Source of the DNA: an uncultured bacterium
GTDB lineage: Bacteria > Vulcanimicrobiota > Xenobia > Xenobiales > Xenobiaceae
NCBI GenBank assembly: GCA_934644775.1
Contig: CAKUDB010000011.1
Coordinates: forward strand, 1,118-65,117
DNA length: 64,000 nucleotides
Direction of reading: 5' to 3'
Shown: one piece after another, positions 25,044 to 48,386 of the stretch
Layout: the number at the start of each line of letters is the position of its first letter
Numbering within the stretch: the first letter of the stretch is position 1
The notes under the pieces: generated by a model
Seen by the model: the letters and a program-made list of their open reading frames with translations, nothing else
Databases searched by the model: none
What the model was told of the DNA's origin: nothing
Position numbers and translations under genes: made by a program

Positions 25044-25733
25044 CTAACTTTGCTTATAAACGAACTTACTATCATCTATAGAAAATTCGTCGCCATCTTT
25101 TAAGTATACCGGCGTAGTAAGTAATTCTCCGTTACAAAAAGTGCCGTTGGCACTACCTAAATCTTCCAGAACGACTCCGCTGGGATCGACTGATAGTTTG
25201 GCATGACGAGAGGAGACGAAGTTGCCAGTTAAACAAACGTCACACTCAGAAGAGCGTCCAAATATCAAAGTCTGTTCTACAGGTAAACTCTTCGCTGCCA
25301 AATAAGGACTATCGACTAGCAAATGGCTACCCGAAGGTGACGAAGCTGCCGCCGATTTTTTGACAGCCGCCAAGAATTGCTCACGCGAACTACCTACAGC
25401 TGGCATATCAGCCACAGTTGGAGCATAACATAAATCGAAATTAGTCTTCTCTGCCGAAGCCGACCTTACCGCCCCTAAGCTACCAGAAGCAGCTGAATGG
25501 AAGCTTTTCCTACTTTTGCCCTCGGATCTTTCTCCCTCTTGGGCAGAATCTGGTTCCGACTGTCCGGGACGAGAGAGACTATCTTTCTTTTCGGAAGGAG
25601 GCTCGGCTTTAGGCATTCCTTGATAGATAATCCGCAAAGAGACAACCACAAAAGCACAAATCAGCCCTAAAAGCGGAAATTTTAGAAAGTAGAGAATCCC
25701 CTCGGAAATGCCTTCTTTCAAACCGACCTCCAT
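25044..25733 (-). CDS. FHA domain-containing membrane protein (FhaB/FipA-like)
   Basis: N-terminal TM helix and Ser/Pro-rich linker, with a C-terminal FHA domain (LIFGRSSECDVCLTGNFVSSRHAKLSVDPSGVVLEDLGSANGTFCNG); position directly upstream of RodA-PBP mirrors the fhaB-rodA-pbpA arrangement. Confidence 0.75.
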   Translation of the reverse strand: MEVGLKEGISEGILYFLKFPLLGLICAFVVVSLRIIYQGMPKAEPPSEKKDSLSRPGQSEPDSAQEGERSEGKSRKSFHSAASGSLGAVRSASAEKTNFDLCYAPTVADMPAVGSSREQFLAAVKKSAAASSPSGSHLLVDSPYLAAKSLPVEQTLIFGRSSECDVCLTGNFVSSRHAKLSVDPSGVVLEDLGSANGTFCNGELLTTPVYLKDGDEFSIDDSKFVYKQS

Positions 25734-25793: not shown

Positions 25794-27077
25794 TTACTTA
25801 CTTAAATCGAAGCCATGACTGCGGAAGGTACTGGGATCGTGACAAACTTCTTTGGCAATATCTTTATCAATAACTTTATCTTTCAACAGCTTGAGTAAGG
25901 CAGAATCCATAGTTTGCATACCGATATCCTTACCCGTCTGAATATAGTTATTGATTTGAGAAGTTTTGCCCTCACGGATAATATTGGAGAAGCCGGCTTG
26001 GGAAATAAGAATCTCGTGCACCGCTACTCGACCGCCGCCAATCTTCTTAAGCAAAAGCTGAGCCACCACCGCTTTAATAGATTCGCTGAGCATAGCGCGA
26101 ATAGTATCTTGCTGTTTGGCAGGGAAGACGTCGATAATACGATCTATAGTTTTGGCGGCAGAATTGGTATGCAAAGTACCAAAAACTAAAGCGCCCGTTT
26201 CGGCCGCCTTAATGGCATTGTAAATAGTATCTAAATCGCGCATTTCACCCACCAAAACAATATCGGGATCTTCACGCAAAGAAGCTCTCAGAGCTTCGGC
26301 GAAGGTATTGGCGTGAGTACCCACTTCGCGATGATCGATAATACATTTTTGGTTTTTATGGGTAAACTCAACGGGATCTTCAATAGTAATTATGTGGGCA
26401 GCGCGATTTTTATTCACATAATCGAGCATAGCCGCCATAGTGGTAGATTTACCCGAACCGGTAGGGCCAGTTACTAAGACGATCCCTTTCTTGAACATAG
26501 CGATCTTTTTGAGCACTTCGGGAAGGTGCATCTCGTCAATAGTAGGTATGCGGCTGGGGATTTCCCGGAAAACGGCCGCCAAACCGCACTTTTGTTTAAA
26601 AAAGTTGCCACGGAAACGAGCCAGTCCGGGAATTTCGTAGGCAAAATCGAGATTGCCACATTTTTCAAAAGCTTCCCAGCGCTCGGCACTAACTAAAGGC
26701 AGTAAAAGCTCCCTGGCCTTTTCGTTAGTCAGAACTGGGCAGGTAGAGCGATGTAAATCGCCGCTAATACGGAACATAGGCACTTCGCCTACGGACAAAT
26801 GCAAGTCGGAGCCTTTGTGGGCTACCAAAATGCGCAATAAGTCGTCCTGATTATAATCGTCGGCCACTTCGATTAAAGGCAGCTCCTCTACTGGGGGCTC
26901 TTCTTGAGCAACTTCTGCTACCGAAGGGGCAGAAGCTTCATAATCGGCACTAGTGGCAACCCCTACATTAGAATCGGCTACAGCAGAAGTGACAACTTTT
27001 TCTTCCACTGTCGGTGCAGGCTCTTCGCGAGAGGCGGAAGAGGAAAATCTCTTGGTCAAGCTGGAAAAAAATGCCAT
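25794..27077 (-). CDS. PilT/PilU-family ATPase with ~80-aa acidic N-terminal extension
   Basis: GPTGSGKSTT, IEDPVEF, DIVLVGEMRDLDT, TLHTNSAAKT are all canonical. Confidence 0.85.
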   Translation of the reverse strand: MAFFSSLTKRFSSSASREEPAPTVEEKVVTSAVADSNVGVATSADYEASAPSVAEVAQEEPPVEELPLIEVADDYNQDDLLRILVAHKGSDLHLSVGEVPMFRISGDLHRSTCPVLTNEKARELLLPLVSAERWEAFEKCGNLDFAYEIPGLARFRGNFFKQKCGLAAVFREIPSRIPTIDEMHLPEVLKKIAMFKKGIVLVTGPTGSGKSTTMAAMLDYVNKNRAAHIITIEDPVEFTHKNQKCIIDHREVGTHANTFAEALRASLREDPDIVLVGEMRDLDTIYNAIKAAETGALVFGTLHTNSAAKTIDRIIDVFPAKQQDTIRAMLSESIKAVVAQLLLKKIGGGRVAVHEILISQAGFSNIIREGKTSQINNYIQTGKDIGMQTMDSALLKLLKDKVIDKDIAKEVCHDPSTFRSHGFDLSK

Positions 27078-27095
27078 AATTTTCTACCCCTTAAA

Positions 27096-28187
27096 TTAGT
27101 CGGCCATATAGGCGTTGGAAGAAAGGTGACGGTAAGGCTCGCGATTTACTGAGCAAGCTTCGGCTTCTTCTTTAGTAATGAGGCCGCGCTTAAAGAGTTC
27201 TAAAACGGAATTATCCATAACGCACATACCGTCTTTCTTGCCCGTTTGCATGGACATAGTGATTTGATAAGTTTTGCCATCGCGAATTAAATTGGAGATA
27301 CTGCCGTTATTGACTAAAATTTCTACAGCGGCCACCCGTCCAGAGCCATCGGCCTTGGGAATGAGCTGTTGAGCAATTACACCGCGCAGCGATTCTGAAA
27401 GCATAGTGCGTATTTGGGCTTGCTGATCGATAGGAAAAGCGTCGATCAAGCGATCTACAGCTTTGGCAGCAGAGTTGGTATGCAGAGTGCCTAACACCAA
27501 GTGGCCAGTCTCGGCAGCTGTAATAGCCAAAGATATAGTTTCTAAATCGCGCAATTCACCGACAAAAATAATATCGGGGTCTTCGCGCAAAGCCCCCTTC
27601 AGAGCCAAAGCGAAACTTTCTACATCGCGACCGACCTGGCGCTGGTTAATTAAAGCTTTTTTATTTTTGAATATATACTCAATAGGATCTTCTACAGTAA
27701 TTATATGGACCGGAGAGCGGGAGTTGATAATATCTAAAAGTGCAGCCACGGTAGCCGTTTTACCACAGCCGGCCTGGCCAGTACAAAGGATCAAACCTTG
27801 GTGGTATCGGGTCAGTTTATCTAAACTAGCAGGCAAGCCCAATTCTTCCAAAGTGGGAATCTTTGAAGGTATCAACCTAAAAACGATATTCAAGCCATTT
27901 TTTTGCTCGTAGACATTGCCGCGCAATCTCCAAGGGCCGCCCTCTTCGACTGTACCCAGTTCCAGGGCAAAATCTAAGTTTTTATCTTGCTTAAGTTTTT
28001 CGAGTTGTTCAACACTAAAGAGCGATTTGGCAACTTCGACTACAAAATCGTTAGGCAAAACATAATCGTCGGTCATACGTTGCAAAGAGCCGTAAATGCG
28101 AGCGACCGGAGCTTCGCCAGAGACTAAATATAGGTCTGAAGCGTGACAATCGACCATCATTTGCAAACATTTATTCAAATAGGACAT
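27096..28187 (-). CDS. PilT/PilU-family ATPase
   Basis: Walker A GQAGCGKT, VEDPIEY, IIFVGELRDLET, TLHTNSAAKA. ATG at 28187 (GAGAGGT RBS 10 nt upstream) places ASDLYL 16 residues from the N-terminus, as in PilT. The track ORF extends to TTG 28256. Confidence 0.85.
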   Translation of the reverse strand: MSYLNKCLQMMVDCHASDLYLVSGEAPVARIYGSLQRMTDDYVLPNDFVVEVAKSLFSVEQLEKLKQDKNLDFALELGTVEEGGPWRLRGNVYEQKNGLNIVFRLIPSKIPTLEELGLPASLDKLTRYHQGLILCTGQAGCGKTATVAALLDIINSRSPVHIITVEDPIEYIFKNKKALINQRQVGRDVESFALALKGALREDPDIIFVGELRDLETISLAITAAETGHLVLGTLHTNSAAKAVDRLIDAFPIDQQAQIRTMLSESLRGVIAQQLIPKADGSGRVAAVEILVNNGSISNLIRDGKTYQITMSMQTGKKDGMCVMDNSVLELFKRGLITKEEAEACSVNREPYRHLSSNAYMAD

Positions 28188-28463
28188 AGACAAACGACCT
28201 CTCTGAGAATGGATTATAGCTCTTTTATATCTGACTATGTAGAGCAACTGCCCCAACTAGCTCCGACCAATTGCTTAGGGCAACAATTTCGCACTTGATC
28301 GCGCCTCTTTTTAGCACTGCCACGAAAACTCTGCCGCCTTTCGCCGCTGGGATAGTGTCTCCTTTAGAAGGCCAGTGGCAGGTAATTTAGGCTTTTTTGT
28401 GAACAAGAGGGGCCTACTGATAGCCCAAGAAGTCATCCCGAAAGAAAAGAAAATTACCATATT

Positions 28464-29926: not shown

Positions 29927-31129
29927 ATGATAAAAAGAATCTTTTCAAATACGATCGTTATTTTAATATTAGCCGTAATTGTTGGCATCCTGACAGGATT
30001 TTTCATCCCCGAAGGGTTGATGAAAAGCGTATTAGTCGTCAAACAAATAAGTGGCCAAATTATCTTTTTCCTCGTGCCCCTAATTATTATTGGTTTTGTG
30101 GCTCCTTCTATCGCCTCACTGAGGGGAAGCGTTTCCAAACTGATAATCTTTGCCTTTTCGTTAGCTTATCTATCATCTATAGGTGCAGCATTCTTCGCCA
30201 TGATGTTGGGATACCAGATAATTCCTTGGCTCGAGATACAACCTATCACCAATTCCCTGAAGGAGTTACCTGAAGTTTTATTTAGTTTAGAGATTCCTCC
30301 CGTTTTGAGCGTTATGTCCGCCTTGCTACTCTCGATCTTTATCGGCTTGGGATGCTGTTGGACAAAATCTGATGGAATTACAGAGCTGCTTTTGCAATTT
30401 CGAGAGATTGTGCTGCAACTGGTAAAACGAATCCTAATCCCTCTGCTTCCGTTGTATGTAGCTGCCAATTTCTGTGCCATATCCTATGAGGGGAATATTT
30501 CCCGCTTTGGTATACTATTGCCAGTAATTTTGATCGTCATAGTTTGCCACTATGTATGGCTTTTATTACTCTATGGATTGGCAACCCTTTACTCAAGGAA
30601 GAACAGTTGGCAAGTGCTCAAGTTCTACTTACCAGCCTATCTCACGGCTTTGGGAACTATGTCTTCTGCCGCCACTTTGGGAGTGGCTCTCGAATGCGCA
30701 CGCAAGAGTCCTATCCTGGATAGGAAAGTCTCGGACTTCTCTATTCCCCTATTCGCCAATATCCATCTTTGCGGTTCTGTACTTACTGAGGTATTCTTTG
30801 TGTGCGTCGTATCCCAGTTACTCTACGGCCAGTTGCCTACATTTTCCACTTTCATCTTATTTATATTGCTTCTGGGAGTATTCGCTGTAGGGGCCCCCGG
30901 AGTTCCTGGGGGAACGGTACTGGCCTCATTGGGTATTGTCGTTTCCGTATTGGGCTTTAATGATGCAGGTACAGCTATGCTTATAGCGATCTTTGCCTTA
31001 CAAGATAGCTTCGGCACGGCTTGCAACATTACTGGCGACGGAGCCTTAGCCTTGATCACCGATACGTTTATGAAACGGCAAAATAAGGGAGACGACAATA
31101 CAACAGATCCTAATAATGGCCCCAATTAG
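29927..31129 (+). CDS. dicarboxylate/amino acid:cation symporter (DAACS/GltP family)
   Basis: 400 aa polytopic; GAPGVPGGTVLASLGIV and ACNITGDGALALITD hairpin-loop motifs. Confidence 0.8.
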   Translation: MIKRIFSNTIVILILAVIVGILTGFFIPEGLMKSVLVVKQISGQIIFFLVPLIIIGFVAPSIASLRGSVSKLIIFAFSLAYLSSIGAAFFAMMLGYQIIPWLEIQPITNSLKELPEVLFSLEIPPVLSVMSALLLSIFIGLGCCWTKSDGITELLLQFREIVLQLVKRILIPLLPLYVAANFCAISYEGNISRFGILLPVILIVIVCHYVWLLLLYGLATLYSRKNSWQVLKFYLPAYLTALGTMSSAATLGVALECARKSPILDRKVSDFSIPLFANIHLCGSVLTEVFFVCVVSQLLYGQLPTFSTFILFILLLGVFAVGAPGVPGGTVLASLGIVVSVLGFNDAGTAMLIAIFALQDSFGTACNITGDGALALITDTFMKRQNKGDDNTTDPNNGPN

Positions 31130-32775
31130 TGAGGTTGGTTTTCCCTTGGGTTGGCCAAAGAGGCCACCAATTCGTCCAACTTTTCCAACATAACCTTAAG
31201 TGAGTCGGCTTGCAAGGCGGTGACAAAAACGGCCTCCGTCCAGACTTGACGCACGTTATCTAAAATTTCTGGAGCGGTTTTGTCTATTTTATTGAAAACG
31301 ACCAGTTGGGGAATATCGTCTAAAGCTAACTCTTCCAAAATTTGCTGTACAGCCATAATCTGATTGGCAAATTCAGGATTAGAAATATCGACTACATGGA
31401 GCAAAATGTCGGCGTCGCTGAGTTCTTCCAAAGTAGCTCGAAAAGCTTTGGCCAAATCTTCTGGCAAATCTTGGATAAAACCGACCGTATCGATTAGAAC
31501 GGTCTTGCGCCCTGAAGGCAAACGCAATTTTCTAGAAGTAGGATCTAAAGTGGCAAAGAACCGATCTTCCACCAAAATTTTGGCTCCAGTTAGAGTGCGC
31601 AAAATAGTAGATTTGCCAGCATTGGTATAGCCTACTAGATTGATAATAGGGGTGCCCGACTCTTGGCGATTAGTGCGACGGCGGCGACGCTGGCACGATA
31701 ATTGATCGAGGTCGCGCTCTAATTTGGCAATACGATCCTTAACTCGGCGACGCAAAACCTCAATTTTAGTTTCGCCTGGCCCCTTAGCTCCGATACCGCC
31801 AGTAATACGCGACATAAAGTCATCTTTAAGTACCAAGCGCGGCAAGCTATATTTCATTTGAGCTAGCTCAACTTGCAATTTACCATCTTTGCTACTAGCT
31901 CGACGAGCGAATATATCTAAAATAAGCTGGGTACGATCGATTACTTCCAATTCGCACAATTCGGAAATAGCCCGCATTTGTGAGCCACTCAGCTCCCCTC
32001 CAAAAACAATTAGATCGGCACCCTTTTGCATGGCAGTGATCATAATATCGGTAAGCTTGCCGCTACCGACTACGAATTTAGCGTCTAGACGGGGACGTTT
32101 TTGAATTACTACGTCGACAACTTCAATATCGGCCGAAGCGGCCAACTCCGTCAATTCGGTCATAGAACGCTGCAAATCGTCGAGTTTATTGGTAGTGACT
32201 CCTACCAAAATAGCTTTGCGCCTCGTTTGCCCAGTAGAGCGCGAATCAATTTTTCGGGCATATTCTTGCTCTAAAGCATTGATTAAGCCATAAAAGTCTA
32301 ATTTGAACAGATCTAAAGGCACAGGATCTTCCACATGCCAAGGCTCTTTATCATTAGGTTGCAACCAGGCAGCGTAAATATTGCCGGGCAAACCGCTAGG
32401 CAAAGTTTCCAAAGCGGCCACAGCGTCAAAACGCAGCAAGGCTAAGTCGGTTAAGTCGTCTTGGCTTAAAGGCTCGTTGCTTAAGTGGGTATGGATCCAA
32501 CGTACGCCACGAAAACGGGATTGGCCGACGCGGAAACGCCCCAATTCAGAGATCATAATAGATTTGGCGTCGCCGACAAAAACTTGTAAAACATTACCTT
32601 TGCGATCGATTAGAATACCAACTTGTCTACCTATTTCCCAAGAAATTTCGGTAAGATAACGGCCCAACTCCCAACTAACTAAGCTCTCTCGAGCGACCCT
32701 CTTTTGGAATAGACGCAACAAGTTTTTTTTCTGATTAGGTTTTAAGCCAACGATATTTCCTTTAATTTCAGCCAT
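31126..32775 (-). CDS. hflX: GTPase HflX with ~170-aa N-terminal extension
   Basis: G1 GYTNAGKST, G3 DTVGFI, and an HflX N-domain/coiled-coil ahead of the G domain; 549 aa versus ~430 for a typical HflX. Confidence 0.85.
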   Translation of the reverse strand: MAEIKGNIVGLKPNQKKNLLRLFQKRVARESLVSWELGRYLTEISWEIGRQVGILIDRKGNVLQVFVGDAKSIMISELGRFRVGQSRFRGVRWIHTHLSNEPLSQDDLTDLALLRFDAVAALETLPSGLPGNIYAAWLQPNDKEPWHVEDPVPLDLFKLDFYGLINALEQEYARKIDSRSTGQTRRKAILVGVTTNKLDDLQRSMTELTELAASADIEVVDVVIQKRPRLDAKFVVGSGKLTDIMITAMQKGADLIVFGGELSGSQMRAISELCELEVIDRTQLILDIFARRASSKDGKLQVELAQMKYSLPRLVLKDDFMSRITGGIGAKGPGETKIEVLRRRVKDRIAKLERDLDQLSCQRRRRRTNRQESGTPIINLVGYTNAGKSTILRTLTGAKILVEDRFFATLDPTSRKLRLPSGRKTVLIDTVGFIQDLPEDLAKAFRATLEELSDADILLHVVDISNPEFANQIMAVQQILEELALDDIPQLVVFNKIDKTAPEILDNVRQVWTEAVFVTALQADSLKVMLEKLDELVASLANPRENQPH

Positions 32776-33042: not shown

Positions 33043-34674
33043 ATGGCTTGGAGTTCTGGTCTGCAACTTAGAGTAGTTGAAGGCAATGACGAAGGTAGGG
33101 TTGTCCTGCTCAACTCGCCGGAAATAACCTTAGGAAGAGCAGTTGAAACTAGCGAAAGTTCTCCCGGCTGGGTTCTCTTTTCTGAACCTACCGTGTCCAG
33201 AATCCATGCCTTGTTGCAATGGGATGACGAAAGGCAGTGTTATGTTTTACAGCACCGCTCTCGCACCAATCCTACTTTAGTTCGTGACGTACCCGTCGAC
33301 GGCTATCCGCTCCATCTCAACGAAAAAGTCAATTTAGGATTGTTGGGCTTTATTCTAGAGCCGGCCGAAACGCGCACCGGCAAGTTGGGCGACGCTGTCA
33401 AGACTCCACAAAGTCAGGGTGTATCCCCAGGAGTGTTTGACGCCCTAAACGACTACGCTTCCAAGAGCAACAACCGGCAAGACAGAGAAAATATGGCTGG
33501 TATGGCCGGTTTAATAGATGGCGGTGGGCAAGACGAAGAAAAATTCGTTATGAGCGTAATCCAGGGGCCTGATAAAGGGACGAATTATCCTCTCCGCGAG
33601 CCCGTATTAGTTATAGGTCGCCTCCAAGGGCCCGCCGATCCGCGAGCCAGCGCCGGCGTATTGTTGCACGATACCTCCGTTCCCAGCGAGCAAGCGCTCC
33701 TAGTTTGGCAAGATCGGGCCGCCACCTATGGCATATTGCAATCAGATAGCAGCAGCCAGGCCACCCGTATTAGACGCATGTCCAACGGTATGCCTCGCGA
33801 AATTATCGTGCGCAGCGATATTCCCACCGTACTTAACGAGCGGGACGTTATTATGATCGGTCGCACGGCTATGGTACTTTCCAGCAACCAAAGGTCGAGT
33901 AGCGGCTACGATTTAGGCCAAACTAGTATGCACATGGCTGGCCAACAGCCCCAACAACCTTTCCACGAATTTGATGTAGACGATAACCAGCTCCATCGTT
34001 CTCCTTTGCGCAGTTGGCGAGACAATAATCCTCCTCGTCAACCTTACTCTGAGCCAGCCCCCCAGTATCAACAGCCGCCTCAACAGCCTTATCAGCCACG
34101 CCCAGAGTACGGAGGCTATCCTGCAAGCCAAGAAGCCCCAGCTTATGGTGATTACCAGCCTCGACAGCGCCGCGAAGCTTATCCTCCTGATCCTAACAGC
34201 TACCCAGGACAGCCTCCTTATGGACAGCCCGAGCCCGCCCCCTACCGCGAGCAGCCGCCTTACAACTATGAGCCAGCCCCGGACTATGCTCCTGCGCCAG
34301 CCCCCACTCCGGCCAATGCTCCTCGCCCGGCGGGTGCCCCCCATCCAGCAGGAACTCCACGTCCAGCTGGTGCTCCCCGTCCAGCTGGAGCTCCTCGTCC
34401 AGCAGGCGCTCCACGCCCAGCAGGCGCTCCTCGTCCTGCCGGGGCTCCTCGTCCTGCCGGGGCTCCACGCCCTGCAGGCGCTCCTCGTCCTGCCGGGGCT
34501 CCACGCCCTACAGGCGCTCCACGCCCAGCAGGCGCTCCCCGTCCAGCAGGCGCTCCCCGTCCAGCAGGCGCTCCCCGTCCAGCCGGAGCTCCACGCCCTG
34601 CCGGAGCTCCTCGCCCAGCGGGTGCTCCCCGTCCAGCTGCTCCCTCAGAGACAGAAGGCGATAGTTATCGATAA
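33043..34674 (+). CDS. FHA domain protein (two FHA-like domains) with C-terminal Pro-rich (APRPAG)n tandem repeat tail
   Basis: First FHA: ITLGRAVE...VSRIHALLQWDDERQCYVLQHRSRTNPTLV. Second: LVIGRLQG...; about 18 consecutive APRPAG hexads; GAGAGG RBS. Confidence 0.75.
   Translation: MAWSSGLQLRVVEGNDEGRVVLLNSPEITLGRAVETSESSPGWVLFSEPTVSRIHALLQWDDERQCYVLQHRSRTNPTLVRDVPVDGYPLHLNEKVNLGLLGFILEPAETRTGKLGDAVKTPQSQGVSPGVFDALNDYASKSNNRQDRENMAGMAGLIDGGGQDEEKFVMSVIQGPDKGTNYPLREPVLVIGRLQGPADPRASAGVLLHDTSVPSEQALLVWQDRAATYGILQSDSSSQATRIRRMSNGMPREIIVRSDIPTVLNERDVIMIGRTAMVLSSNQRSSSGYDLGQTSMHMAGQQPQQPFHEFDVDDNQLHRSPLRSWRDNNPPRQPYSEPAPQYQQPPQQPYQPRPEYGGYPASQEAPAYGDYQPRQRREAYPPDPNSYPGQPPYGQPEPAPYREQPPYNYEPAPDYAPAPAPTPANAPRPAGAPHPAGTPRPAGAPRPAGAPRPAGAPRPAGAPRPAGAPRPAGAPRPAGAPRPAGAPRPTGAPRPAGAPRPAGAPRPAGAPRPAGAPRPAGAPRPAGAPRPAAPSETEGDSYR
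34318..34640 (+). repeat. 18-nt tandem DNA repeat (~18 copies) encoding (APRPAG)n
   Basis: Repeated gctcctcgtcctgccggg / gctccacgcccagcaggc units, lying within the coding region. Confidence 0.9.
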
Positions 34675-34763
34675 ATACTACCCGCCGACCGAAGGGCCAC
34701 TCCAAGCCTAATAAAGGCTCGGTCGGCTGTGACAGTTTTTTATTTTGCATAGGTATAGCAACG

Positions 34764-37286
34764 GTGGAAAATCAGAATAGCCCTCAGCAACAAGCAGCCG
34801 ATCTTCGCATGATGTTGGATAGCGAGCCTCCTAAGCAGCGCTCTTCGCGTCGCAGCTCCAGAGGGACGACCCTAAGTGATATAGACACTATGTCCTACGA
34901 CGAACTAGTGGCTTATATCTCTGATTCTAATTCTGATTTTGCCGACGAAGCTACCGGATTAGACGGGCTGCGCGAAGAAGAAGAGCGGGCCAAGCGAGCT
35001 GTGCCCTACTCTTTTGCCTCTTTAGGTAAGAAGCAACCCGCCGATACTTCGGCCTCCAACTCGCATTTGACCGACTTATCTAGTTTGCGAACTATCACTC
35101 CCGATCCTCAAGCCTATTCCCAGCCCGAATATTATCAGCCAAACGACCCTCAAGACTCAGCTCAGGGAGCAAGTGGCCTTACAAATGGCCTTCTGGAAAG
35201 TCCTAGCGACAACACCGACTTTTCTGTAGCTTCAAACAACAATATCTTCGACGCTAAAGACTACAATAGCCAAGATTTTAAGCGCGACAGCTTGGTTCGC
35301 GAAGGCTTAGGCCACGACGGTTTCAATCATGAAAGCTACAACGGTGAAAGCTTAGGTCATGACGGTTTTGACCACGATGGTTTCGACCATGAAGGCTTCG
35401 ATCACGAAGGCTTCGACCGCGACGGCTACGACCGCGAAGGCTTCGATCACGAAGGCTTCGACCGCGAAGGCTTCGATCACGAAGGCTTCGACCGCGAAGG
35501 CTTCGATCACGAAGGCTTCGACCGCGAAGGCTTCGATCACGAAGGCTTCGACCGCGACGGCTACGATCACGACAACTACGACCGCGAAGGCTACGACTGG
35601 GAAGGCTTTGATAGCGAAGGCTACGATCGCGACGGTTTTGATCGCGACAACTACGACCGCGAGGGTTACGACTGGGAAGGTTTCAACCAATATGGCCTCA
35701 ATCGTCAAGGCTTCGACCGTGACGGCTTCGATGAGGAAGGCTTTGATAGCGAAGGCTACGATCACGACGGTTTTGACCGCGACAACTACGACCGCGAGGG
35801 TTACGACTGGGAAGGTTTCAACCAATATGGCCTAGATCGTCAGGGCTTCAACCGTCACGGCTACGATGCGGAAGGTTACGATCGTGAAGGCTTCAATAGC
35901 GAAGGCTTTGATCGTGACGGCTACGACCGCGAAGGTTTCGACCAGTATAATTATGACCGCGAAGGTTACGATTGGGAGGGATACGATTGCGAAGGCTACG
36001 ATTACGGCGGTTTTGATCGAGACGGCTACGATAAAGAAGGTTATACCCGTCAAGATTGGGAGGCTGCGGGCTACAAATTTGGGCCACGCGGCGAGTTTAT
36101 TTTATCGGAAAGCGAGACCTCCGAGACAGAAGCCGCAGCCAATGAGCCTATTGGCCAAGAAGAGGCAGCCCCTCAATTAAATAAAGATTCAACTACTAGG
36201 CCAGAGCCAAGTCCCGAAGTTCAAGCCGAGTCAGCCCCAACTCCCGTTGAAGATGACGAAAAGGTTGAAGATATTGAAGATGATAGAGTCGTTGGAGCTG
36301 AGCCAGACCACGAAGCCAACGAAGAGGATCTATCCGACCAAGAGCTTCCCGAGTATAATTTTGCCGCTGCTCCTCCGGCCAGGGCCAATGAAGTTAAGCC
36401 CCAGGCTGAGCCAGAATCGCTTAGTTTTAGTCAGGAAGGAGCCTACAGAGCCGAACTGCCGGTAGCAGCCGAAGCCCCTCACGAAGCCCCTCAACAAGTG
36501 AACGCCGAGCCTCAAGTTCAGACCTCTTCGGCAAGTGAGTTGCCACCAGAAGCCTCTATAGCTTCAGCTCAGCCTAGGGCAGACGTGCCTTTATTTGAGC
36601 CGGAGGGCAAGTTAGGCAATATGACCAGCCCTTGGAGCTACGAATGCGACTACGCTATCGATTATATTAGTGGCAGTCGTCGCGGCCAAAGGATCGCTTT
36701 ACTAGCTTCTGAGCTTGGCGATACGCGGTCTTTTACTGTTGGCTCAAGTGGCGAGCGCGTCAACGATATTGAAGTAGATGAACCTACTATAGCTAACGAT
36801 CAAGCCTTACTGCGTTACAATAACGGTCGCTTTACTTTGATCAATTTCCAAGAAGATATTAAGATCAATAGGCGGATTATCACTTGCGGCGAGCAAGTCA
36901 ATTTAATGACCGGTGATGAGATTAGCTTAGGAAACACCACTTTAGTTTTTAGTGAGCGTTGTATCAGTGAAGCTTTGGCCGAATATTCTATCGATGTGGT
37001 GGAAGGTGCCCCAACCGATCTAGGCAAGTCTTTCCCTCTAACTAAGCAGCGCTCTTCTATAGGGCGGGATCGCAATTCGGATATTCCCCTTACCGATCAA
37101 GAGATCAGCCGCCAACATTGTACCCTTACTTTCCGGGCCGGTAAGTTCTTCTTGCAACATCGCTCCGATACCAACCCAACCTTTATTAACGGCGTTTCTG
37201 TTCCCGTCGGCGGTGAGCGCCAGATAACTACCGAGGATAAGATTCAAATTTCCAGCCGTACCGTTTTGCAACTGGTAAAACATTGA
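34764..37286 (+). CDS. large FHA domain protein: disordered N-terminus, ~45 tandem acidic/aromatic pentad repeats (E-G-F/Y-D-x), C-terminal tandem FHA domains
   Basis: GTG start; runs of EGFDHEGFDREGFDHEGFDRDGYD...EGYDWEGF; C-terminal FHA: SIGRDRNSDIPLTDQEISRQHCTLTFRAGKFFLQHRSDTNPTFINGVSV. Confidence 0.75.
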   Translation: MENQNSPQQQAADLRMMLDSEPPKQRSSRRSSRGTTLSDIDTMSYDELVAYISDSNSDFADEATGLDGLREEEERAKRAVPYSFASLGKKQPADTSASNSHLTDLSSLRTITPDPQAYSQPEYYQPNDPQDSAQGASGLTNGLLESPSDNTDFSVASNNNIFDAKDYNSQDFKRDSLVREGLGHDGFNHESYNGESLGHDGFDHDGFDHEGFDHEGFDRDGYDREGFDHEGFDREGFDHEGFDREGFDHEGFDREGFDHEGFDRDGYDHDNYDREGYDWEGFDSEGYDRDGFDRDNYDREGYDWEGFNQYGLNRQGFDRDGFDEEGFDSEGYDHDGFDRDNYDREGYDWEGFNQYGLDRQGFNRHGYDAEGYDREGFNSEGFDRDGYDREGFDQYNYDREGYDWEGYDCEGYDYGGFDRDGYDKEGYTRQDWEAAGYKFGPRGEFILSESETSETEAAANEPIGQEEAAPQLNKDSTTRPEPSPEVQAESAPTPVEDDEKVEDIEDDRVVGAEPDHEANEEDLSDQELPEYNFAAAPPARANEVKPQAEPESLSFSQEGAYRAELPVAAEAPHEAPQQVNAEPQVQTSSASELPPEASIASAQPRADVPLFEPEGKLGNMTSPWSYECDYAIDYISGSRRGQRIALLASELGDTRSFTVGSSGERVNDIEVDEPTIANDQALLRYNNGRFTLINFQEDIKINRRIITCGEQVNLMTGDEISLGNTTLVFSERCISEALAEYSIDVVEGAPTDLGKSFPLTKQRSSIGRDRNSDIPLTDQEISRQHCTLTFRAGKFFLQHRSDTNPTFINGVSVPVGGERQITTEDKIQISSRTVLQLVKH
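35293..36060 (+). repeat. 15/30-nt tandem DNA repeat block encoding the pentad (GFDxE/GYDxE) repeats
   Basis: Many near-identical gaaggcttcgatcacgaaggcttcgaccgc units; the antisense ORFs in the track here are repeat artefacts. Confidence 0.9.
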
Positions 37287-37313: not shown

Positions 37314-38840
37314 ATGTCTGAGGCTAAGTTTGCGAATTTGAGTATAGAAGATAAAGCTGCTCAGCTAATTATGATCGATCTTCCCGACCGCGAGTTGGGA
37401 GAGAAGAGCGCTAAACATTTAAGCACTCACGCTTGGAACGGCGTTATTCTTTTTGCCAAAAATGTTCACGATCGCCAGCAAGTAAACGAACTTATAAGAG
37501 CTATCCATAAAAATGCCAAAATAGCTCCTTTTATAGCTGTCGACCAGGAAGGCGGCTTAGTAGATCGTTTCCGCTATCCTGAGATGAGCTTATCTCCAGG
37601 CGCTATGGCTTTAGGCGTAACTAATAGCGAAGATAAGGTTTACCAAGCCCATCGCATTATGGGCGAAGAACTGCGCGATTTGGGCGTCCATATCGATTTT
37701 GCCCCCTGTCTAGACGTTAATAATAATCCCCGCAACCCTATTATCGGCGTGCGCTCCTTTTCTGCCAATCCACATAAAGTTGCAAGCTTGGGTTGTGCAG
37801 CTATTCGCGGTCTCCGGGACGGCGGCGTCATTCCTACAGCCAAACATTTTCCCGGCCATGGCAATACCGACACCGATTCACATTTAGCTTTACCATCCAT
37901 AAAGGGAACTCGTCAACAACTTGAAACTACAGAGCTTATTCCGTTTAAAGCTGCTATCAAAGAAAATGTGGAAGCCATTATGACAGCCCATATCGTCTTT
38001 CCCGCTTTAGACGCCAAACTGCCTGCCACTCTTTCCAAGACAATTTTAACCGGACTCTTACGCCAAGAGCTGGGTTACGAGGGAGTAATCGTTACCGATT
38101 CTCTATCTATGAAGTCGATTGCTAATACTTGGGGCTTTGGCGAAGCCACAGTTATGTCCATAGAAGCCGACGCTGATTTGGTTCTGGCTTTAGGCACTTT
38201 TGAACAGCAGCTAGAATCTCTTAATGCGTTGATAGAAGCAGTAAAAAATGGACGTATCAGCGAAAAACGTTTGGATGAATCCTTGATCCGCTTAGAGAAA
38301 CTGCGCCGCAATCATCAGGAACTTCCTCAAGAAGAGATAAAACACACCGAAGAGCACCGCGCCATTATGAGTAAAATTATTGCTCAAACTGCTGTAATTT
38401 TGCGTAACCATAACAACTTATTACCTCTGCACTTGCCCCAAGACGCTAAAGTGGCAGTTGTTTCTCCCGATCTATTGCCCCAAAGTCCTTTGGGAGAGGT
38501 CTCCCAAACGCTCAATTTAGCCCCTATGTTAGCTAAATATGGGATTGAAGCTCAAGAATTTAAGTTTAATATGGCTAGCTTCGGCCCGCCTTTAAATCAA
38601 TTAGTCCGCGATTTGCAAGGATTCGATTATGTGATTTTAGCTCTTTATGCCCGAGGTCAGCTTTCCGATTCACAAAAAGAGTTAGCCCGAGAGATTCCCC
38701 AAGTGTGCTCTAATACGATAGTTTTGCCACTCTCCAGTCCATATTTCCTGGAAGATATGGCTTGGATCGGTACAGCTGTAACTGCTTATAATTATAGTCC
38801 AGCTTCTCTGGAAGCTGCCTTGGCAAAGATTTTTGCTTAA
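37314..38840 (+). CDS. nagZ: beta-N-acetylhexosaminidase (glycoside hydrolase family 3, NagZ-like)
   Basis: GH3 N-terminal domain with KHFPGHGNTDTDSH catalytic region. Confidence 0.85.
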   Translation: MSEAKFANLSIEDKAAQLIMIDLPDRELGEKSAKHLSTHAWNGVILFAKNVHDRQQVNELIRAIHKNAKIAPFIAVDQEGGLVDRFRYPEMSLSPGAMALGVTNSEDKVYQAHRIMGEELRDLGVHIDFAPCLDVNNNPRNPIIGVRSFSANPHKVASLGCAAIRGLRDGGVIPTAKHFPGHGNTDTDSHLALPSIKGTRQQLETTELIPFKAAIKENVEAIMTAHIVFPALDAKLPATLSKTILTGLLRQELGYEGVIVTDSLSMKSIANTWGFGEATVMSIEADADLVLALGTFEQQLESLNALIEAVKNGRISEKRLDESLIRLEKLRRNHQELPQEEIKHTEEHRAIMSKIIAQTAVILRNHNNLLPLHLPQDAKVAVVSPDLLPQSPLGEVSQTLNLAPMLAKYGIEAQEFKFNMASFGPPLNQLVRDLQGFDYVILALYARGQLSDSQKELAREIPQVCSNTIVLPLSSPYFLEDMAWIGTAVTAYNYSPASLEAALAKIFA

Positions 38841-38914: not shown

Positions 38915-39406
38915 CTAGTTGTGGGGCGGAAAAACGGCTATAAACTTTACAATTCCATTCTCCACTTGGAATCCCAAACCAATACTTTTATAAGCATAGA
39001 AAGATTGTTTGGGCTGACTTTTAGCTGTAGGTAATTCGTGGGCTAAATAATCCTTGCCGTAAGCAGCCATAAATTTAGCTTGCGGATCGCCAACCTGGAT
39101 ACCTTTGGAAGTGACAATACCAGGTTTATCAATATAAATTTGGTAAGCAGTGGCATTGCTGTCGTAGTTGATTTGGACGCCGTTAAGGTAATAAATCCAA
39201 AATGGGCGTTTATGACCTATAAAAGCATGATCGGCTTTAGGGTTGCGTTGGACAATTTGCTCACATTTGCTAATAGGCATACCTATACTTAAAGGGCCTA
39301 CTCCCTTACCCGGACGTACATCCCAATTGCTCTGAGCTGCAGCCACGCCAATCAAAAGGCCCACAGCTATGATTACAGCCAAAATAAGTCTGCTTATTTT
39401 ACGCAT
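38915..39406 (-). CDS. hypothetical secreted protein (signal peptide)
   Basis: MRKISRLILAVIIAVGLLIGVAAAQSNW signal peptide; no recognisable domain. Confidence 0.55.
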   Translation of the reverse strand: MRKISRLILAVIIAVGLLIGVAAAQSNWDVRPGKGVGPLSIGMPISKCEQIVQRNPKADHAFIGHKRPFWIYYLNGVQINYDSNATAYQIYIDKPGIVTSKGIQVGDPQAKFMAAYGKDYLAHELPTAKSQPKQSFYAYKSIGLGFQVENGIVKFIAVFPPHN

Positions 39407-39529: not shown

Positions 39530-40006
39530 TTATTTTTCTTCACCGATTACTTCCATACGATTGCGTAAGATATAATCTTTGCGATTATAATATTCGTTGC
39601 GCAAAGTATCACACTCAGCTAAAGCCTGGCGAAAAGCAGCCACAGTTGTGTAAGTATGGGAGGGGATATGTTCTTCAGTTTGCTCATACTCAGTGTGGCT
39701 CCCAGAAATACCGTGAGCATTAACCGTAGTGTTTGAATAACTTGTCGTTTTGGGAGCTTTTTCACTAGCTAGGGTAGCTAAAGCAGCCAGAACCTGATGG
39801 CGCTGGGTAATATATTTAATATACAAACCGTGCAATTCACGGATAGCGTTGCTCGGCGAAGTAACTTCCCCAGCGACAGAAAGTAAAGTCTGGCTGACCG
39901 GCATGGCATTTTTATCCAAGAATTTACTCAGCTCAGCAAACGAAAGTTTGTTACTTTGAATAATTAAATAACGCAAATCGTTATCGTATTTTTCTGCCGC
40001 TTTCAT
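39530..40006 (-). CDS. hypothetical protein
   Basis: 158-aa ORF, ATG start, in-frame upstream TGA; coding-like composition. Confidence 0.5.
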   Translation of the reverse strand: MKAAEKYDNDLRYLIIQSNKLSFAELSKFLDKNAMPVSQTLLSVAGEVTSPSNAIRELHGLYIKYITQRHQVLAALATLASEKAPKTTSYSNTTVNAHGISGSHTEYEQTEEHIPSHTYTTVAAFRQALAECDTLRNEYYNRKDYILRNRMEVIGEEK

Positions 40007-47627: not shown

Positions 47628-48240
47628 TAGCCTCTTGGGCAGTAGCGTAAGGGGTACTAGTAACTCGGTAGGCTATACCACCTTCTACAGGAATTTCCTG
47701 AACTAAATAAGGTACACCCTCTTGCTCTAAACGAGCTTCCAAAGAATCGACAGTCTCTTTTTGCATAAAAGAGCCAAAGAAGAGTACCCTTCCGGCGGTG
47801 CTATTTTCGACGCTAATGTTTTCCTGGGAACTGGCCTGGGAACTAGGGCTGGCCGTTCCACTATCGGAGCTATTCCCTACTACAGAAGGCGTCTCTTGGG
47901 GCGTAACATCTATAGTAGGTGTACTGTTGTTAGAAATAACCGGAGTGGGCGTTTGGCCGACCGGCTCGACAACTAGCGTATTCTCAGTCTGACTATCGAC
48001 ATTTTTATTGTTGCTTCTATCTATCTCATCTTGCTTATCTTTAGCTAAATTGACATAGATAGACGAAGTCCGAGTTGGCATAGCCGAAGCGCTCGAAACA
48101 GTATCTGCGTCAGATAAATATTTATCGACAGCCGTTTTGCCTAGCATAGCTCCTAGGACAGCGAATACCCAAATAAGAGCAAAGCTCGTAAAGATCATCC
48201 TCATCCAAAAACCATCCCGCTGCCGCTGAGCCTGAGCCAT
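47572..48240 (-). CDS. SPOR domain-containing membrane protein (peptidoglycan binding)
   Basis: C-terminal SPOR-like block RVLFFGSFMQKETVDSLEARLEQEGVPYLVQEIPVEGGIAYRVTSTPYATAQEANAKLEALKGANIEV; N-terminal TM. ATG at 48240 (AGGAGG RBS) is preferred over the track TTG 48345. Confidence 0.65.
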   Translation of the reverse strand: MAQAQRQRDGFWMRMIFTSFALIWVFAVLGAMLGKTAVDKYLSDADTVSSASAMPTRTSSIYVNLAKDKQDEIDRSNNKNVDSQTENTLVVEPVGQTPTPVISNNSTPTIDVTPQETPSVVGNSSDSGTASPSSQASSQENISVENSTAGRVLFFGSFMQKETVDSLEARLEQEGVPYLVQEIPVEGGIAYRVTSTPYATAQEANAKLEALKGANIEVYLDE

Positions 48241-48386
48241 AATATGCCAACCTCCTAAACTTAACGCAGCTCCCCAAAAATAATCAGATCTAAAGAGAGG
48301 CCTGACAGCTCCATCTATTGACGATCCAGTCAGACCTCTCACCAATTGCTGAAGAAGAGCTTTTTCCCTTCTCTAGCCAAAGGAAA

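What the first reader, a model, noticed from the sequence alone, without database searches (positions are those of the whole stretch)
33043..37286. Tandem pair of FHA-domain proteins carrying extreme low-complexity repeats: (APRPAG)x18 and ~45 acidic/aromatic pentads (E-G-F/Y-D-x)
Two co-directional genes each have two FHA (phospho-Thr binding) domains plus a long repetitive module. The first ends in ~18 APRPAG hexads (polyproline-II-like). The second has a central ~250-residue block of pentads such as EGFDHEGFDREGFDR and EGYDWEGF with strict 5-residue periodicity, flanked by disordered acidic sequence. The pentad does not match the classical pentapeptide-repeat consensus A(D/N)LXX and is not an RTX nonapeptide. 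Its regular D/E plus F/Y/W spacing suggests a beta-solenoid or a cation/Ca-binding or nucleic-acid-mimicking surface. Together with the FhaB-like protein upstream of RodA-PBP2 (25044-25733), the window holds at least three FHA proteins, pointing to a Ser/Thr-phosphorylation-dependent scaffold system; no kinase or phosphatase gene is visible here.
Basis: seen in the sequence. Interest (0 to 1): 0.6.

Follow-up and report, generated by a model that had tools for sequence, protein, structure and literature searches.

The report
Split four-FHA scaffold with repeat modules
Two neighbouring genes of an uncultured gut bacterium are the two halves of what is one phosphothreonine-reading (FHA) scaffold gene in related bacteria; after the split one half carries a basic proline-rich repeat tail and the other an acidic, aromatic five-residue repeat of a large, uncurated family that is predicted to be ordered but matches no solved structure.

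Summary
ORF1 (33043-34674) carries 17-18 APRPAG hexads. ORF2 (34764-37286) carries about 50 G-[F/Y]-D-x-[E/D] pentads in one unbroken register. Each protein has one canonical and one degenerate FHA domain.

1. In every more distant relative (L013, L023/24, L029, L026) the two genes are one ORF: FHA, FHA-like, Pro-rich linker, FHA-like, FHA, usually between HflX and a NagZ-type GH3. Only the gut Bruticola-like clade (Vulcanimicrobiota, class Xenobia) is split, and only it has the PRPAG tail and the pentad block.
2. The pentad is not a classical pentapeptide repeat or an RTX repeat. It belongs to a large uncurated family (3,550 clusters; partners include UvrD-type helicases, zinc ribbons and an exonuclease). 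Its closest curated neighbour is Pfam "Decapeptide" (PF25296) and its closest described one the DotG decapeptide; the array's conserved cap is one DotG-type unit.
3. AlphaFold models the block confidently (pLDDT 90-96), but Foldseek finds no match in the PDB.

The likeliest role is a bivalent phosphothreonine-reading scaffold, perhaps tied to cell-wall turnover. Reassociation of the two halves through the oppositely charged repeats is untested. No kinase or phosphatase gene is in the window.

The parts
31126..32775 (-). HflX GTPase; conserved neighbour of the FHA gene(s) across the lineage
   Evidence: TIGR03156 435 bits, cutoff 217. Adjacent in L001, L002, L013, L015, L018, L023/24, L029.
33043..34674 (+). 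ORF1, 543 aa: the N-terminal half of the ancestral four-FHA protein
   Evidence: Residues 1-325 align to residues 1-317 of the fused L013 ORF (57% identity, E 1e-115).
33043..33378 (+). ORF1 FHA-a (aa 1-112), canonical: G31-R32, S52-R53-x-H55, T75-N76
   Evidence: Pfam FHA 33.5 bits and PF16697 48.7 bits; alignment; these residues are invariant in A4.
33550..33927 (+). ORF1 FHA-b (aa 170-295): divergent FHA-like domain. G-R is kept, Ser is replaced by Pro and His by Gln ('PSEQALL')
   Evidence: Second PF16697 stretch; 29% identity to FHA-a; the profile's best PDB hits are the Mtb FhaA FHA domain at only E about 0.2.
33928..34317 (+). ORF1 Pro/Gln/Tyr-rich low-complexity region (P 26%, Q 14%, Y 11%) containing the conserved short motif RSPLRSWR
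   Evidence: Composition. The motif is kept in L001-L003, L012 and L018, and in altered form in L013 and L023.
34318..34641 (+). (APRPAG)x17-18 basic proline-rich tail, net charge +15
   Evidence: Codon differences among units are 440 synonymous to 48 non-synonymous. A PRPAG core with other periods occurs in the orthologues.
34764..37286 (+). ORF2, 840 aa, GTG start: the C-terminal half of the ancestral four-FHA protein
   Evidence: The start matches the annotated orthologue P0029, 'MENQN...'. Residues 625-837 align to residues 712-924 of the fused L013 ORF (50% identity, E 2e-66).
34764..34928 (+). ORF2 conserved N-terminal motif (aa 1-55), including RGTTLSDIDTMSYDELVAYISD; short helices are predicted
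   Evidence: Invariant D41, M43, S44, Y45, E47, L48, Y51 and near-invariant G34, T35; helices 37-41 and 45-53.
35304..36038 (+). Array of about 50 pentads G-[F/Y]-D-x-[E/D] (aa 181-425); predicted to be an ordered non-alpha/non-beta repeat
   Evidence: AlphaFold pLDDT 70-87 in the full-length model and 90-96 in the block-only model. No Foldseek match in the PDB or BFVD.
36039..36098 (+). Array cap GYTRQDWEAAGYKFGPRGEF (aa 426-445): one DotG-type decapeptide unit plus a short hairpin
   Evidence: Invariant in 22 orthologues; aligns to DotG 'AGYTSAELRNAGF'; helix at RQDWEA.
36099..36638 (+). Acidic disordered linker (aa 446-625), net charge -33, ending in the conserved DVPLFEPE motif
   Evidence: pLDDT about 30; charge; the motif is kept in the fused L023.
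36639..36977 (+). ORF2 FHA-a (aa 626-738), degenerate: G-S in place of G-R, and 'IANDQALL' in place of S-R-x-H
   Evidence: Pfam FHA second stretch; alignment; folded, pLDDT 57-79.
36978..37283 (+). ORF2 FHA-b (aa 739-840), canonical: G767-R768, S782-R783-x-H785, T803-N804, N809
   Evidence: Pfam FHA 79 bits; PDB hits to DgcB, GarA and OdhI FHA domains; these residues are invariant in the orthologues.
37314..38840 (+). GH3 beta-N-acetylhexosaminidase (NagZ type, no signal peptide seen), 27 nt downstream; a conserved third gene
   Evidence: NF003740 232.7 bits, cutoff 207; Pfam GH3. It follows the FHA gene(s) in L001-L004, L009, L011, L015, L018, L023/24, L029.

Best explanation
The two genes are the halves of a lineage-restricted (Vulcanimicrobiota/Eremiobacterota) cytoplasmic four-FHA scaffold protein. 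In more distant relatives it is one polypeptide: canonical FHA, degenerate FHA, long fast-evolving Pro-rich low-complexity linker, degenerate FHA, canonical FHA. It is usually encoded between hflX and a NagZ-type GH3 gene. In the gut Xenobia (Bruticola-like) clade the gene split inside the linker (shown).

The N-half kept a basic proline-rich tail, here organised as APRPAG hexads. The C-half has a new N-terminal part: a conserved helical motif, an array of G-[FY]-D-x-[ED] pentads closed by a DotG-type decapeptide cap, and an acidic linker. The pentad array is one instance of a large uncurated repeat family and is predicted to be an ordered, rod-like module rather than a random coil (predicted, not proven).

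Inferred mechanism: the two canonical FHA domains, one at each extremity, dock onto phosphothreonine sites made by Ser/Thr kinases encoded elsewhere in the genome. They bridge or cluster the phosphorylated targets, while the repeat modules provide reach and multivalency. This follows the FHA-linker-FHA module of M. tuberculosis Rv1747 and the T6SS Fha protein, both of which form phosphorylation-tuned clusters or condensates. The conserved operon partner NagZ suggests a link to peptidoglycan turnover (weak inference). After the split the halves probably reassociate, plausibly through the basic (+15) polyproline-type tail binding the acidic (-61), aromatic pentad rod (speculative).
For: Architecture and domains.

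Fission:
- Fused single ORFs with no N's are found in L013, L023/24 and L029.
- L026 reads through the point where L015 has an N-gap.
- The split state with in-frame stops occurs in the window, L002, L003, L004 and L018.

Synteny: the FHA gene(s) followed by GH3; HflX adjacent; names. Within the trio there is no + strand terminator between the genes, and the gaps are 89 and 27 nt.

Peptide-level constraint on the repeats:
- 440 synonymous to 48 non-synonymous codon differences among hexads.
- Synonymous variation at the G, F/Y and D codons of the pentads.
- No indels over 50 pentads.
- An invariant cap.

Predicted order: pLDDT 82.5 mean and 90-96 in the core.

Large family: 3,550 cluster representatives at E<=1e-3, with diverse partner domains.

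Co-occurrence: PRPAG-type tail and pentads occur together in all split loci where both genes can be read, and both are absent from all fused loci.

Other points: both proteins lack TM segments. Analogues are Rv1747 (PMC9312465, citing Heinkel et al. 2019) and T6SS Fha condensates (bioRxiv 10.1101/2023.12.21.572528).
Against: - No kinase, phosphatase or identified phospho-target is in the window, so phospho-dependence is inferred only from conserved FHA residues.
- Two of the four FHA domains lack the Ser/His positions.
- Pentad copy number varies from about 13 to about 50 between orthologues, and by two units between proteins 99% identical. The block is absent from fused relatives, so its particular structure may not matter to the core function.
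- The AlphaFold result could be over-confident on near-perfect repeats. The five models range from pLDDT 52 to 82, pTM is 0.49, and the DSSP assignment differs between the two runs.
- Tail length and pentad number do not scale with each other (L002: long tail, 13 pentads).
- The NagZ link is synteny only, and it is missing downstream of the fused L013 gene.
Confidence: 0.5

Rival explanations
1. The repeats are functionally neutral low-complexity expansions produced by replication slippage inside a disordered spacer. Only the length and flexibility of the linker matter. The two proteins need not interact through the repeats and may not interact at all.
For: - Repeat type is interchangeable between lineages: APRPAG, PRPAGPPP, a 13-mer, QQGGQYQ, GGYPQQ, or a plain Pro-rich linker.
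- Pentad copy number is hypervariable, with a 2-unit difference at 99% identity.
- Higher-order DNA repeats of 30, 54 and 135 nt point to ongoing unequal recombination.
- Fused relatives have no pentads.
Against: - 440 synonymous to 48 non-synonymous differences among hexad units.
- A strict register with no indels across 50 pentads.
- An invariant cap and an invariant PRPAG core across 39-99% identical orthologues.
- A confident ordered prediction.
- The same pentad module is reused in thousands of unrelated proteins.
Confidence: 0.25
2. The pentad block is a divergent pentapeptide-repeat (Rfr / MfpA / Qnr-type) right-handed quadrilateral beta-helix that mimics DNA.
For: It has a five-residue period and is strongly acidic (-61). 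In other proteins the same module is fused to UvrD-type helicases and a DEDDh exonuclease.
Against: - The consensus G-[FY]-D-x-[ED] puts an acidic residue where the Rfr fold needs a small inward-pointing residue.
- No Pentapeptide family hit even at E<=10.
- Foldseek of a confident model finds no Rfr-fold structure in the PDB; the best hit has E = 8.
- The published DotG AlphaFold model likewise lacks the classical fold (bioRxiv 10.1101/2023.03.22.533729).
Confidence: 0.06
3. The pentad block is a divalent-cation (Ca2+/Mg2+) binding array that folds or stiffens on metal binding, as RTX beta-rolls or thrombospondin type-3 repeats do.
For: There are regularly spaced D-x-[DE]-G-[FY]-D carboxylates and a net charge of -61. 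AlphaFold predicts a non-alpha/non-beta repetitive structure, as is often the case for metal-stabilised repeats.
Against: There is no HemolysinCabind or other Ca-binding family hit. The protein has no signal peptide or TM segment and so sits in the low-calcium cytoplasm. No structural match exists to any solved metal-binding repeat.
Confidence: 0.1
4. The pair is an accessory scaffold of a secretion or pilus machine, like SctD/YscD, TagH/Fha or DotG, working with the T2SSE ATPases a few kb upstream.
For: PF16697 (YscD cytoplasmic domain) hits lie above cutoff. There are weak TagH, SctD and DotG hits. Two T2SSE ATPase genes lie at 25794-28256 in the window and in L001.
Against: - PF16697 is simply an FHA-fold model.
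- All NCBIfam hits are far below cutoff: 40.7/120, 20/86 and 26/750 bits.
- There is no TM or periplasmic domain.
- The ATPase neighbourhood is not conserved in L002, L003 or L023/24 (the tblastn shows only HflX and GH3 as shared neighbours).
Confidence: 0.06

Closest known systems
M. tuberculosis Rv1747 regulatory module (FHA-1, disordered linker, FHA-2)
   Same: It has multiple FHA domains joined by a long intrinsically disordered linker. Multivalent FHA-pThr contacts drive phosphorylation-tuned clustering or phase separation (PMC9312465, citing Heinkel et al. 2019 PNAS).
   Different: Here there are four FHA domains, two of them degenerate. There is no ABC-transporter body and no membrane anchor. 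The linker is far longer and built of periodic repeats, the polypeptide is split into two genes, and no kinase partner is known.
T6SS Fha/TagH
   Same: An FHA domain plus a long disordered region acts as a condensate-forming assembly scaffold under Ser/Thr-kinase control (bioRxiv 10.1101/2023.12.21.572528; PMC12607579).
   Different: The TIGR03354 score is only 40.7 bits against a 120-bit cutoff. There are no T6SS genes nearby, and the C-terminal domain differs.
DotG/IcmE central decapeptide repeats (Legionella Dot/Icm T4SS); Pfam PF25296 'Decapeptide repeat region'
   Same: Both share a G-[FY]-[STDN] core, and both have repeat numbers that vary between species. The ORF2 array cap GYTRQDWEAAGY equals one DotG-type unit. 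DotG's repeat region has no solved structure and only a low-confidence model (bioRxiv 10.1101/2023.03.22.533729; PMC6761968); the window block likewise matches no solved structure.
   Different: The period is 5, not 10. The helical x-x-[DE]-L-x-x half is absent from the pentads. PF25296 scores 14 bits against a cutoff of 45, and NF033900 scores 26 against 750. The protein is cytoplasmic, not periplasmic, and has no TrbI/VirB10 domain.
Classical pentapeptide-repeat proteins (MfpA, Qnr, Rfr32; Pfam PF00805 clan)
   Same: Tandem five-residue period; acidic surface.
   Different: The consensus differs, there is no family hit, and the model has no structural match.
Actinobacterial FhaA/FhaB(FipA) cell-wall FHA adaptors and GarA/OdhI
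   Same: The canonical FHA of ORF2 is closest in sequence and fold to the GarA, OdhI, DgcB and FhaA FHA domains. The conserved partner NagZ is a peptidoglycan-recycling enzyme, and the window also holds an FhaB-like gene next to FtsW/RodA and a PBP.
   Different: NF049868 scores are 27-33 bits against a cutoff of 125 for ORF1/ORF2. The architecture is different, and there is no pknA/pknB/pstP operon context.

Membership tests
FHA domain (Pfam PF00498) | Profile score above the gathering cutoff | tested here: met
   ORF1 33.5 bits and ORF2 79.4 bits (2 stretches) against a cutoff of 20.7.
FHA domain (Pfam PF00498) | Beta-sandwich FHA fold | tested here: met
   The ORF2 model has both domains folded, and Foldseek gives TM 0.82-0.91 to DgcB, GarA, OdhI and FhaA FHA structures. 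ORF1 was not modelled.
FHA domain (Pfam PF00498) | Phosphothreonine-binding residues G-R, S-x-x-H, T/S-N | tested here: inconclusive
   Met in ORF1 FHA-a and ORF2 FHA-b. Not met in ORF1 FHA-b (Ser to Pro, His to Gln) or ORF2 FHA-a (Arg to Ser, Ser to Ala, His to Gln) (the DgcB alignment confirms FHA-b). Actual binding was not tested.
Pentapeptide repeat (PF00805 clan, Rfr fold) | A(D/N)LXX-type consensus and a profile hit | tested here: not met
   No hit at E<=10; the consensus is G-[FY]-D-x-[ED].
Pentapeptide repeat (PF00805 clan, Rfr fold) | Right-handed quadrilateral beta-helix | tested here: not met
RTX nonapeptide (PF00353) | GGxGxDxUx profile hit with a 9-residue period | tested here: not met
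   No hit; the period is 5.
Pfam PF25296 Decapeptide repeat region | Score above the gathering cutoff (45 bits) | tested here: not met
   14 bits for the window block. Related pentad proteins score 28-34 bits.
DotG/IcmE (NF033900) | Full-length equivalog score (750 bits), a 10-residue repeat and a C-terminal TrbI/VirB10 domain | tested here: not met
   26.4 bits, over the repeat region only. Only the cap matches a decapeptide unit. There is no TrbI domain.
FhaB/FipA (NF049868) | Equivalog score of at least 125 bits | tested here: not met
   26.9 bits (ORF1) and 32.7 bits (ORF2). The third FHA protein, 25044-25733, scores 76.1 bits, also below the cutoff.
TagH (TIGR03354) / SctD (TIGR02500) | Score above the cutoff, plus a TM segment and secretion-system context | tested here: not met
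   40.7/120 and 20.3/86 bits. Maximum Kyte-Doolittle (19-residue window) is 0.77 and 0.66, so there is no TM segment.
Rv1747-type multivalent FHA-linker-FHA scaffold (functional class) | At least two FHA domains joined by a long disordered linker | tested here: met
   The fused orthologues show this directly. In the window the disordered regions have pLDDT about 30.
Rv1747-type multivalent FHA-linker-FHA scaffold (functional class) | Kinase-phosphorylated Thr sites in the linker that are bound by the FHA domains, giving clustering or condensation | not testable with these tools
   The candidate near-invariant T35 in RGTTLSD is only a lead.

The most novel reading that the evidence does not exclude
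The G-[FY]-[DN]-x-x pentad array would be a previously uncharacterised ordered repeat fold, with no counterpart among solved structures, that serves as a modular rod in thousands of bacterial proteins. In this split FHA scaffold it would act as an acidic, aromatic docking rail for the partner's basic polyproline-II (APRPAG)n tail. That would make it a non-covalent zipper that replaced the covalent linker when the ancestral four-FHA gene split.
Probability: 0.15. Interest if true: 0.8.

Novelty: new variant of a known kind. Interest (0 to 1): 0.5.

Why it matters
Multivalent FHA-plus-disordered-linker proteins are emerging as phosphorylation-controlled organisers in bacteria (Rv1747, T6SS Fha). 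This locus offers a natural experiment. The same four-FHA scaffold exists fused, with at least three different linker chemistries, and split, with two new and oppositely charged periodic modules. That makes it possible to ask what such linkers must do.

Separately, the pentad array represents a family of at least 3,550 protein clusters that no curated family assigns above its cutoff. Its prediction is confident, yet it has no match in the PDB. Solving it would also shed light on the unresolved repeat region of Legionella DotG. All of this sits in a gut-associated class (Xenobia) for which I know of no cultured representative, within a phylum whose first isolate was reported in 2022 (PMC9758169).

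Tried and rejected
- Model coordinates are not exposed, so I could not describe the geometry of the pentad fold. The two models also differ in DSSP assignment: [FY]-D beta-bridges every 5 residues, almost none.
- PADLOC gave no defence-system hit for ORF1 or ORF2. The helicase-fused pentad proteins give only generic weak GajB/UvrD hits.
- A literature search for literal pentad strings found 0 papers. 'Decapeptide repeat' plus IcmE also found 0. An FHA/proline-rich/peptidoglycan/NagZ search found nothing relevant.
- The third homologue search, with the ORF2 FHA pair, returned only six fragments from the same lineage.
- ORF1 FHA-b gave no FHA hit against the PDB as a single sequence. As a profile it gave only E about 0.2 to the FhaA FHA domain.
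- The promoter and terminator scan returned fewer sites than shuffles and was uninformative beyond showing no + strand terminator between the genes of the trio.
- I looked for proportionality between tail length and pentad number across orthologue pairs and found none. That argues against a strict 1:1 zipper.
- I first read L015 as a split locus. I rejected that after L026 read through the N-gap.
The conclusion for ORF2 FHA-b is independently supported by the DgcB alignment.

Full report
**1. The observation**

ORF1 (33043-34674, 543 aa) and ORF2 (34764-37286, 840 aa, GTG start) are co-directional and 89 nt apart. A GH3 gene follows 27 nt after ORF2.

ORF1 ends in 17 strict [AT]P[RH]P[AT]G hexads, 14 of them exact APRPAG, plus one degenerate unit. 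ORF2 has about 50 pentads in a single register from aa 181 to 430 with no insertion or deletion. Over the 49 pentads at aa 186-430 the per-position counts are G 43/49, F/Y 46/49, D/N 47/49, x mostly R or H, and E/D 41/49.

Tandem Repeats Finder sees 18/54-nt and 15/30/135-nt periods. Lag identity is 0.93 for the hexads and 0.53 for the pentads, against 0.26 +/- 0.04 and 0.13 +/- 0.02 in shuffles.

Among hexad units, codon differences are 440 synonymous to 48 non-synonymous. The G, F/Y and D codons of the pentads vary synonymously. So the peptides are conserved while the DNA has drifted.

The alternative-frame ORFs inside the arrays (34145-34711, 35359-35835 and others) are by-products of the periodicity.

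**2. Domains**

Pfam finds FHA / Yop-YscD_cpl above cutoff in both proteins, with two stretches each.

Aligning the four domains shows one canonical and one degenerate FHA per protein, in mirror order:
- ORF1 FHA-a (aa 1-112) keeps G-R ... S-R-x-H ... T-N.
- ORF2 FHA-b (aa 739-840) keeps the same set.
- ORF1 FHA-b (aa 170-295) has Ser replaced by Pro and His by Gln, in a shared '..QALL..' motif.
- ORF2 FHA-a (aa 626-738) has Arg replaced by Ser, Ser by Ala and His by Gln, with the same motif.

The DgcB alignment independently confirms the assignment for ORF2 FHA-b.

AlphaFold folds both ORF2 FHA domains, and Foldseek matches them to DgcB, GarA, OdhI and FhaA FHA structures with TM 0.82-0.91. 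ORF1 FHA-b is only weakly FHA-like by sequence.

Neither protein has a TM segment; the maximum Kyte-Doolittle average over 19 residues is 0.77 and 0.66. Net charges are +15 for the tail, -61 for the pentads plus cap, and -33 for the linker.

**3. Organism and neighbours**

Orthologues are annotated 'Candidatus Bruticola sp.'. That genus belongs to Vulcanimicrobiota (formerly Eremiobacterota), class Xenobia.

ORF1's N-terminus finds only 11 GTDB species representatives, among them human-gut (Hadza) and goat-rumen MAGs and records titled Ca. Bruticola, Ca. Eremiobacteraeota and UBP9.

The arrangement ORF1, ORF2, GH3 is conserved in diverged genomes, and HflX is adjacent in most of them. The GH3 passes NCBIfam's cutoff for beta-N-acetylhexosaminidase, i.e. 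NagZ type (232.7 bits against 207). HflX passes TIGR03156.

- The protein at 25044-25733 is an FHA protein with an N-terminal hydrophobic segment. Its FhaB/FipA score of 76 bits is below the 125-bit cutoff.
- It lies next to FtsW/RodA and a PbpA-type PBP, with two T2SSE ATPase genes upstream.
- None of the 47 main ORFs of at least 120 aa has a Pkinase or PP2C domain; the 10 listed ORFs I did not scan lie inside longer ORFs.

That neighbourhood is shared only with the closest relative, L001. It is not shared with L002 or L003.

**4. The pair is a split gene**

In more distant relatives the two genes are one ORF:
- L013 (goat rumen) has an uninterrupted 931-codon ORF. Residues 1-317 match ORF1 (57% identity, E 1e-115) and residues 712-924 match the ORF2 FHA pair (50% identity, E 2e-66). 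Between them lie a Q/P/Y-rich stretch, about 19 GGYPQQ-type hexads and a poly-Pro run. It has no PRPAG tail and no pentads.
- L023/L024 (53% identity, GC 0.67) encode one protein of about 805 aa with a linker of about 290 aa rich in Pro, Glu and Arg.
- L029 (45% identity) encodes one 725-aa protein.
- L026 reads straight through 'PRNFPGNSGVLGAPP', exactly where L015 carries a run of N's. The apparent split in L015 is therefore an assembly artefact.

HflX lies upstream and GH3 downstream in L023/24, L029 and L015.

The split state has real stop codons and a conserved 'MENQN...' restart. It occurs only in the Bruticola-like clade: the window, L001-L004, L007, L009-L011 and L018. There it always comes with a PRPAG-type tail, a pentad array and the cap.

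The breakpoint lies inside the low-complexity linker. It falls between the conserved RSPLRSWR motif, retained in ORF1, and the DVPLFEPE motif, retained in ORF2.

This Rosetta-stone relationship is the strongest evidence that ORF1 and ORF2 act together.

**5. What the pentad block is**

*Family size and partners.* The block is not a private oddity. Searching aa 181-430 against 1.84 billion cluster representatives finds 3,550 proteins at E<=1e-3 and 1,343 at E<=1e-10. Partner domains include UvrD-type helicases (the majority), DUF6273, double zinc ribbons with TM segments, a DEDDh exonuclease and CarboxypepD_reg/PEGA. The few named sources are gut Firmicutes and Actinobacteria.

*Curated families.* No curated family captures it. 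The nearest is Pfam PF25296 'Decapeptide repeat region', which related proteins hit at 28-34 bits and the window block at 14 bits, against a cutoff of 45. The NCBIfam DotG/IcmE model is hit at 26 bits against 750.

*Relation to DotG.* The DotG unit is A-G-[FY]-[ST]-x-x-[DE]-L-x-x (described as [KR]-x-A-G-[FY]-[STND]-x-x-x-[LI] in bioRxiv 10.1101/2023.03.22.533729). The invariant ORF2 cap E-G-Y-T-R-Q-D-W-E-A-A-G-Y is one such unit. The pentads look like the G-[FY]-[DN] half repeated without the helical half.

*Predicted structure.* AlphaFold gives the block pLDDT 70-87 in the full-length model. In a block-only model the mean is 82.5, with 90-96 over about 175 residues. The N-terminal region and the acidic linker score about 30. 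DSSP assigns almost no regular secondary structure. Foldseek finds nothing in the PDB (best E = 8) or in BFVD, so the model is not the classical pentapeptide beta-helix.

*Copy number.* It varies from about 13 (P0067) to about 50 (the window), and by two units (30 nt) between the window and the 99%-identical P0001. P0032 carries two array-plus-cap modules.

**6. Mechanism**

*Shown.* The locus encodes a cytoplasmic protein pair derived from a single gene, with canonical FHA domains at the two extremities. The repeats are constrained at the peptide level. HflX and NagZ are conserved neighbours.

*Inferred.* The proteins act as a bivalent phosphothreonine reader that bridges or clusters substrates of Ser/Thr kinases encoded elsewhere. 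The low-complexity and repeat modules give reach and multivalency. Published analogues are Rv1747 (PMC9312465, citing Heinkel et al. 2019) and T6SS Fha condensates (bioRxiv 10.1101/2023.12.21.572528; PMC12607579).

*Weakly inferred.* There may be a connection to peptidoglycan turnover, through NagZ.

*Speculative.* After the fission, the basic PPII-type tail may dock on the acidic, aromatic pentad rod. This fits the opposite charges and the strict co-occurrence of the two modules. It rests on what is probably one evolutionary event, and repeat numbers do not scale with each other.

A possible autoregulatory phospho-site is the near-invariant T35 in 'RGTTLSD'. It recalls the GarA/OdhI N-terminal threonines and the phosphorylated tail of DgcB (6hc1). 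That comparison rests on background knowledge and was not tested here.

**7. Rivals**

- Neutral slippage spacer: 0.25.
- Cation-binding array: 0.10.
- Rfr-type DNA mimic: 0.06.
- Secretion or pilus accessory: 0.06.

Evidence for and against each is given in the structured fields.

**8. Verdict**

This is a new variant of a known kind, the multivalent FHA scaffold.

Two points deserve follow-up. The first is the fission, with its complementary repeat modules. The second is the large, uncurated pentad family, whose confident predicted fold has no match among solved structures.

Interest is 0.5. The function remains inferential and the organism is uncultured.

Noticed in passing
window 11016-13306 (-) and 25794-28256 (-): There are four T2SSE (PilT/PilB-like) ATPase genes in two tandem pairs. 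The second pair sits directly upstream of the FhaB-like / FtsW-RodA / PBP genes. No other pilus or secretion components turned up in the ORFs I scanned.
   Followed up: partly
window 48387-50741 (-) and 47572-48345 (-): A 784-aa protein has a weak Roadblock/LC7 (MglB-like) stretch at aa 578-653. It is followed by a SPOR-domain (septal peptidoglycan-binding) protein.
   Followed up: no
window ORF1 aa ~320-330 (about 34000-34030); ORF2 aa 34-51 (34863-34916) and aa 607-614 (36582-36605): Three short conserved motifs lie inside otherwise fast-evolving low-complexity sequence: RSPLRSWR, RGTTLSDIDTMSYDELVAY and DVPLFEPE. The first and third are also recognisable in fused orthologues. They are candidate docking or phospho-acceptor sites.
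   Followed up: partly
L001/L010, L005, L006, L008, L012, L014, L015: MAG contigs of relatives often end, or carry runs of N, inside the repeat arrays. In L015 the N-gap makes a fused gene look split. P0003 has an over-extended start upstream of the conserved MENQN start.
   Followed up: yes
P0001 versus window ORF2: A protein 99% identical differs by exactly two pentads (10 aa, 30 nt). This indicates ongoing copy-number polymorphism at the 30-nt period.
   Followed up: partly
P0029 aa ~560-700; L018 ORF2 9275-12037 (acidic linker): In orthologues the acidic linker between the pentads and the FHA pair has its own lineage-specific long repeats. P0029 has a unit of about 29 aa, GEIQPEEYHNEDYEVIEEEAAEDYQTEQ, four times. 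L018 has Q-Q-Y-E-Q-E-Y-x-H-Q-D-D units about eight times.
   Followed up: no
L015 6639-6962 and L026 740-1105: The most distant clade carries an extra 107-aa gene made of a single FHA domain, a paralogue of FHA-a, between hflX and the four-FHA gene. L015 also has an unannotated 425-aa gene before GH3.
   Followed up: no
P0254 (513 aa); P0251 / L016 8001-8861: These are distant relatives of the canonical-plus-degenerate FHA pair. P0254 has three FHA domains after an N-terminal region that looks like a nucleotide cyclase (not tested). P0251 is a bare FHA pair lying immediately downstream of a FHIPEP (FlhA-type) gene.
   Followed up: no
window 13273-14616, 14645-15415, 15697-16959, 17074-17877, 38915-39406, 39530-40006, 53812-55374, 63167-63628: Eight sizeable ORFs have no Pfam match. 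The 163-aa ORF at 38915-39406 has a same-sized, likewise unannotated gene at the equivalent position downstream of GH3 in L001.
   Followed up: no
window 55696-58872 (-): A carbamoyltransferase (NodU/CmcH type) is fused to a C-terminal SGNH/GDSL-like hydrolase region, giving a 1058-aa protein.
   Followed up: no
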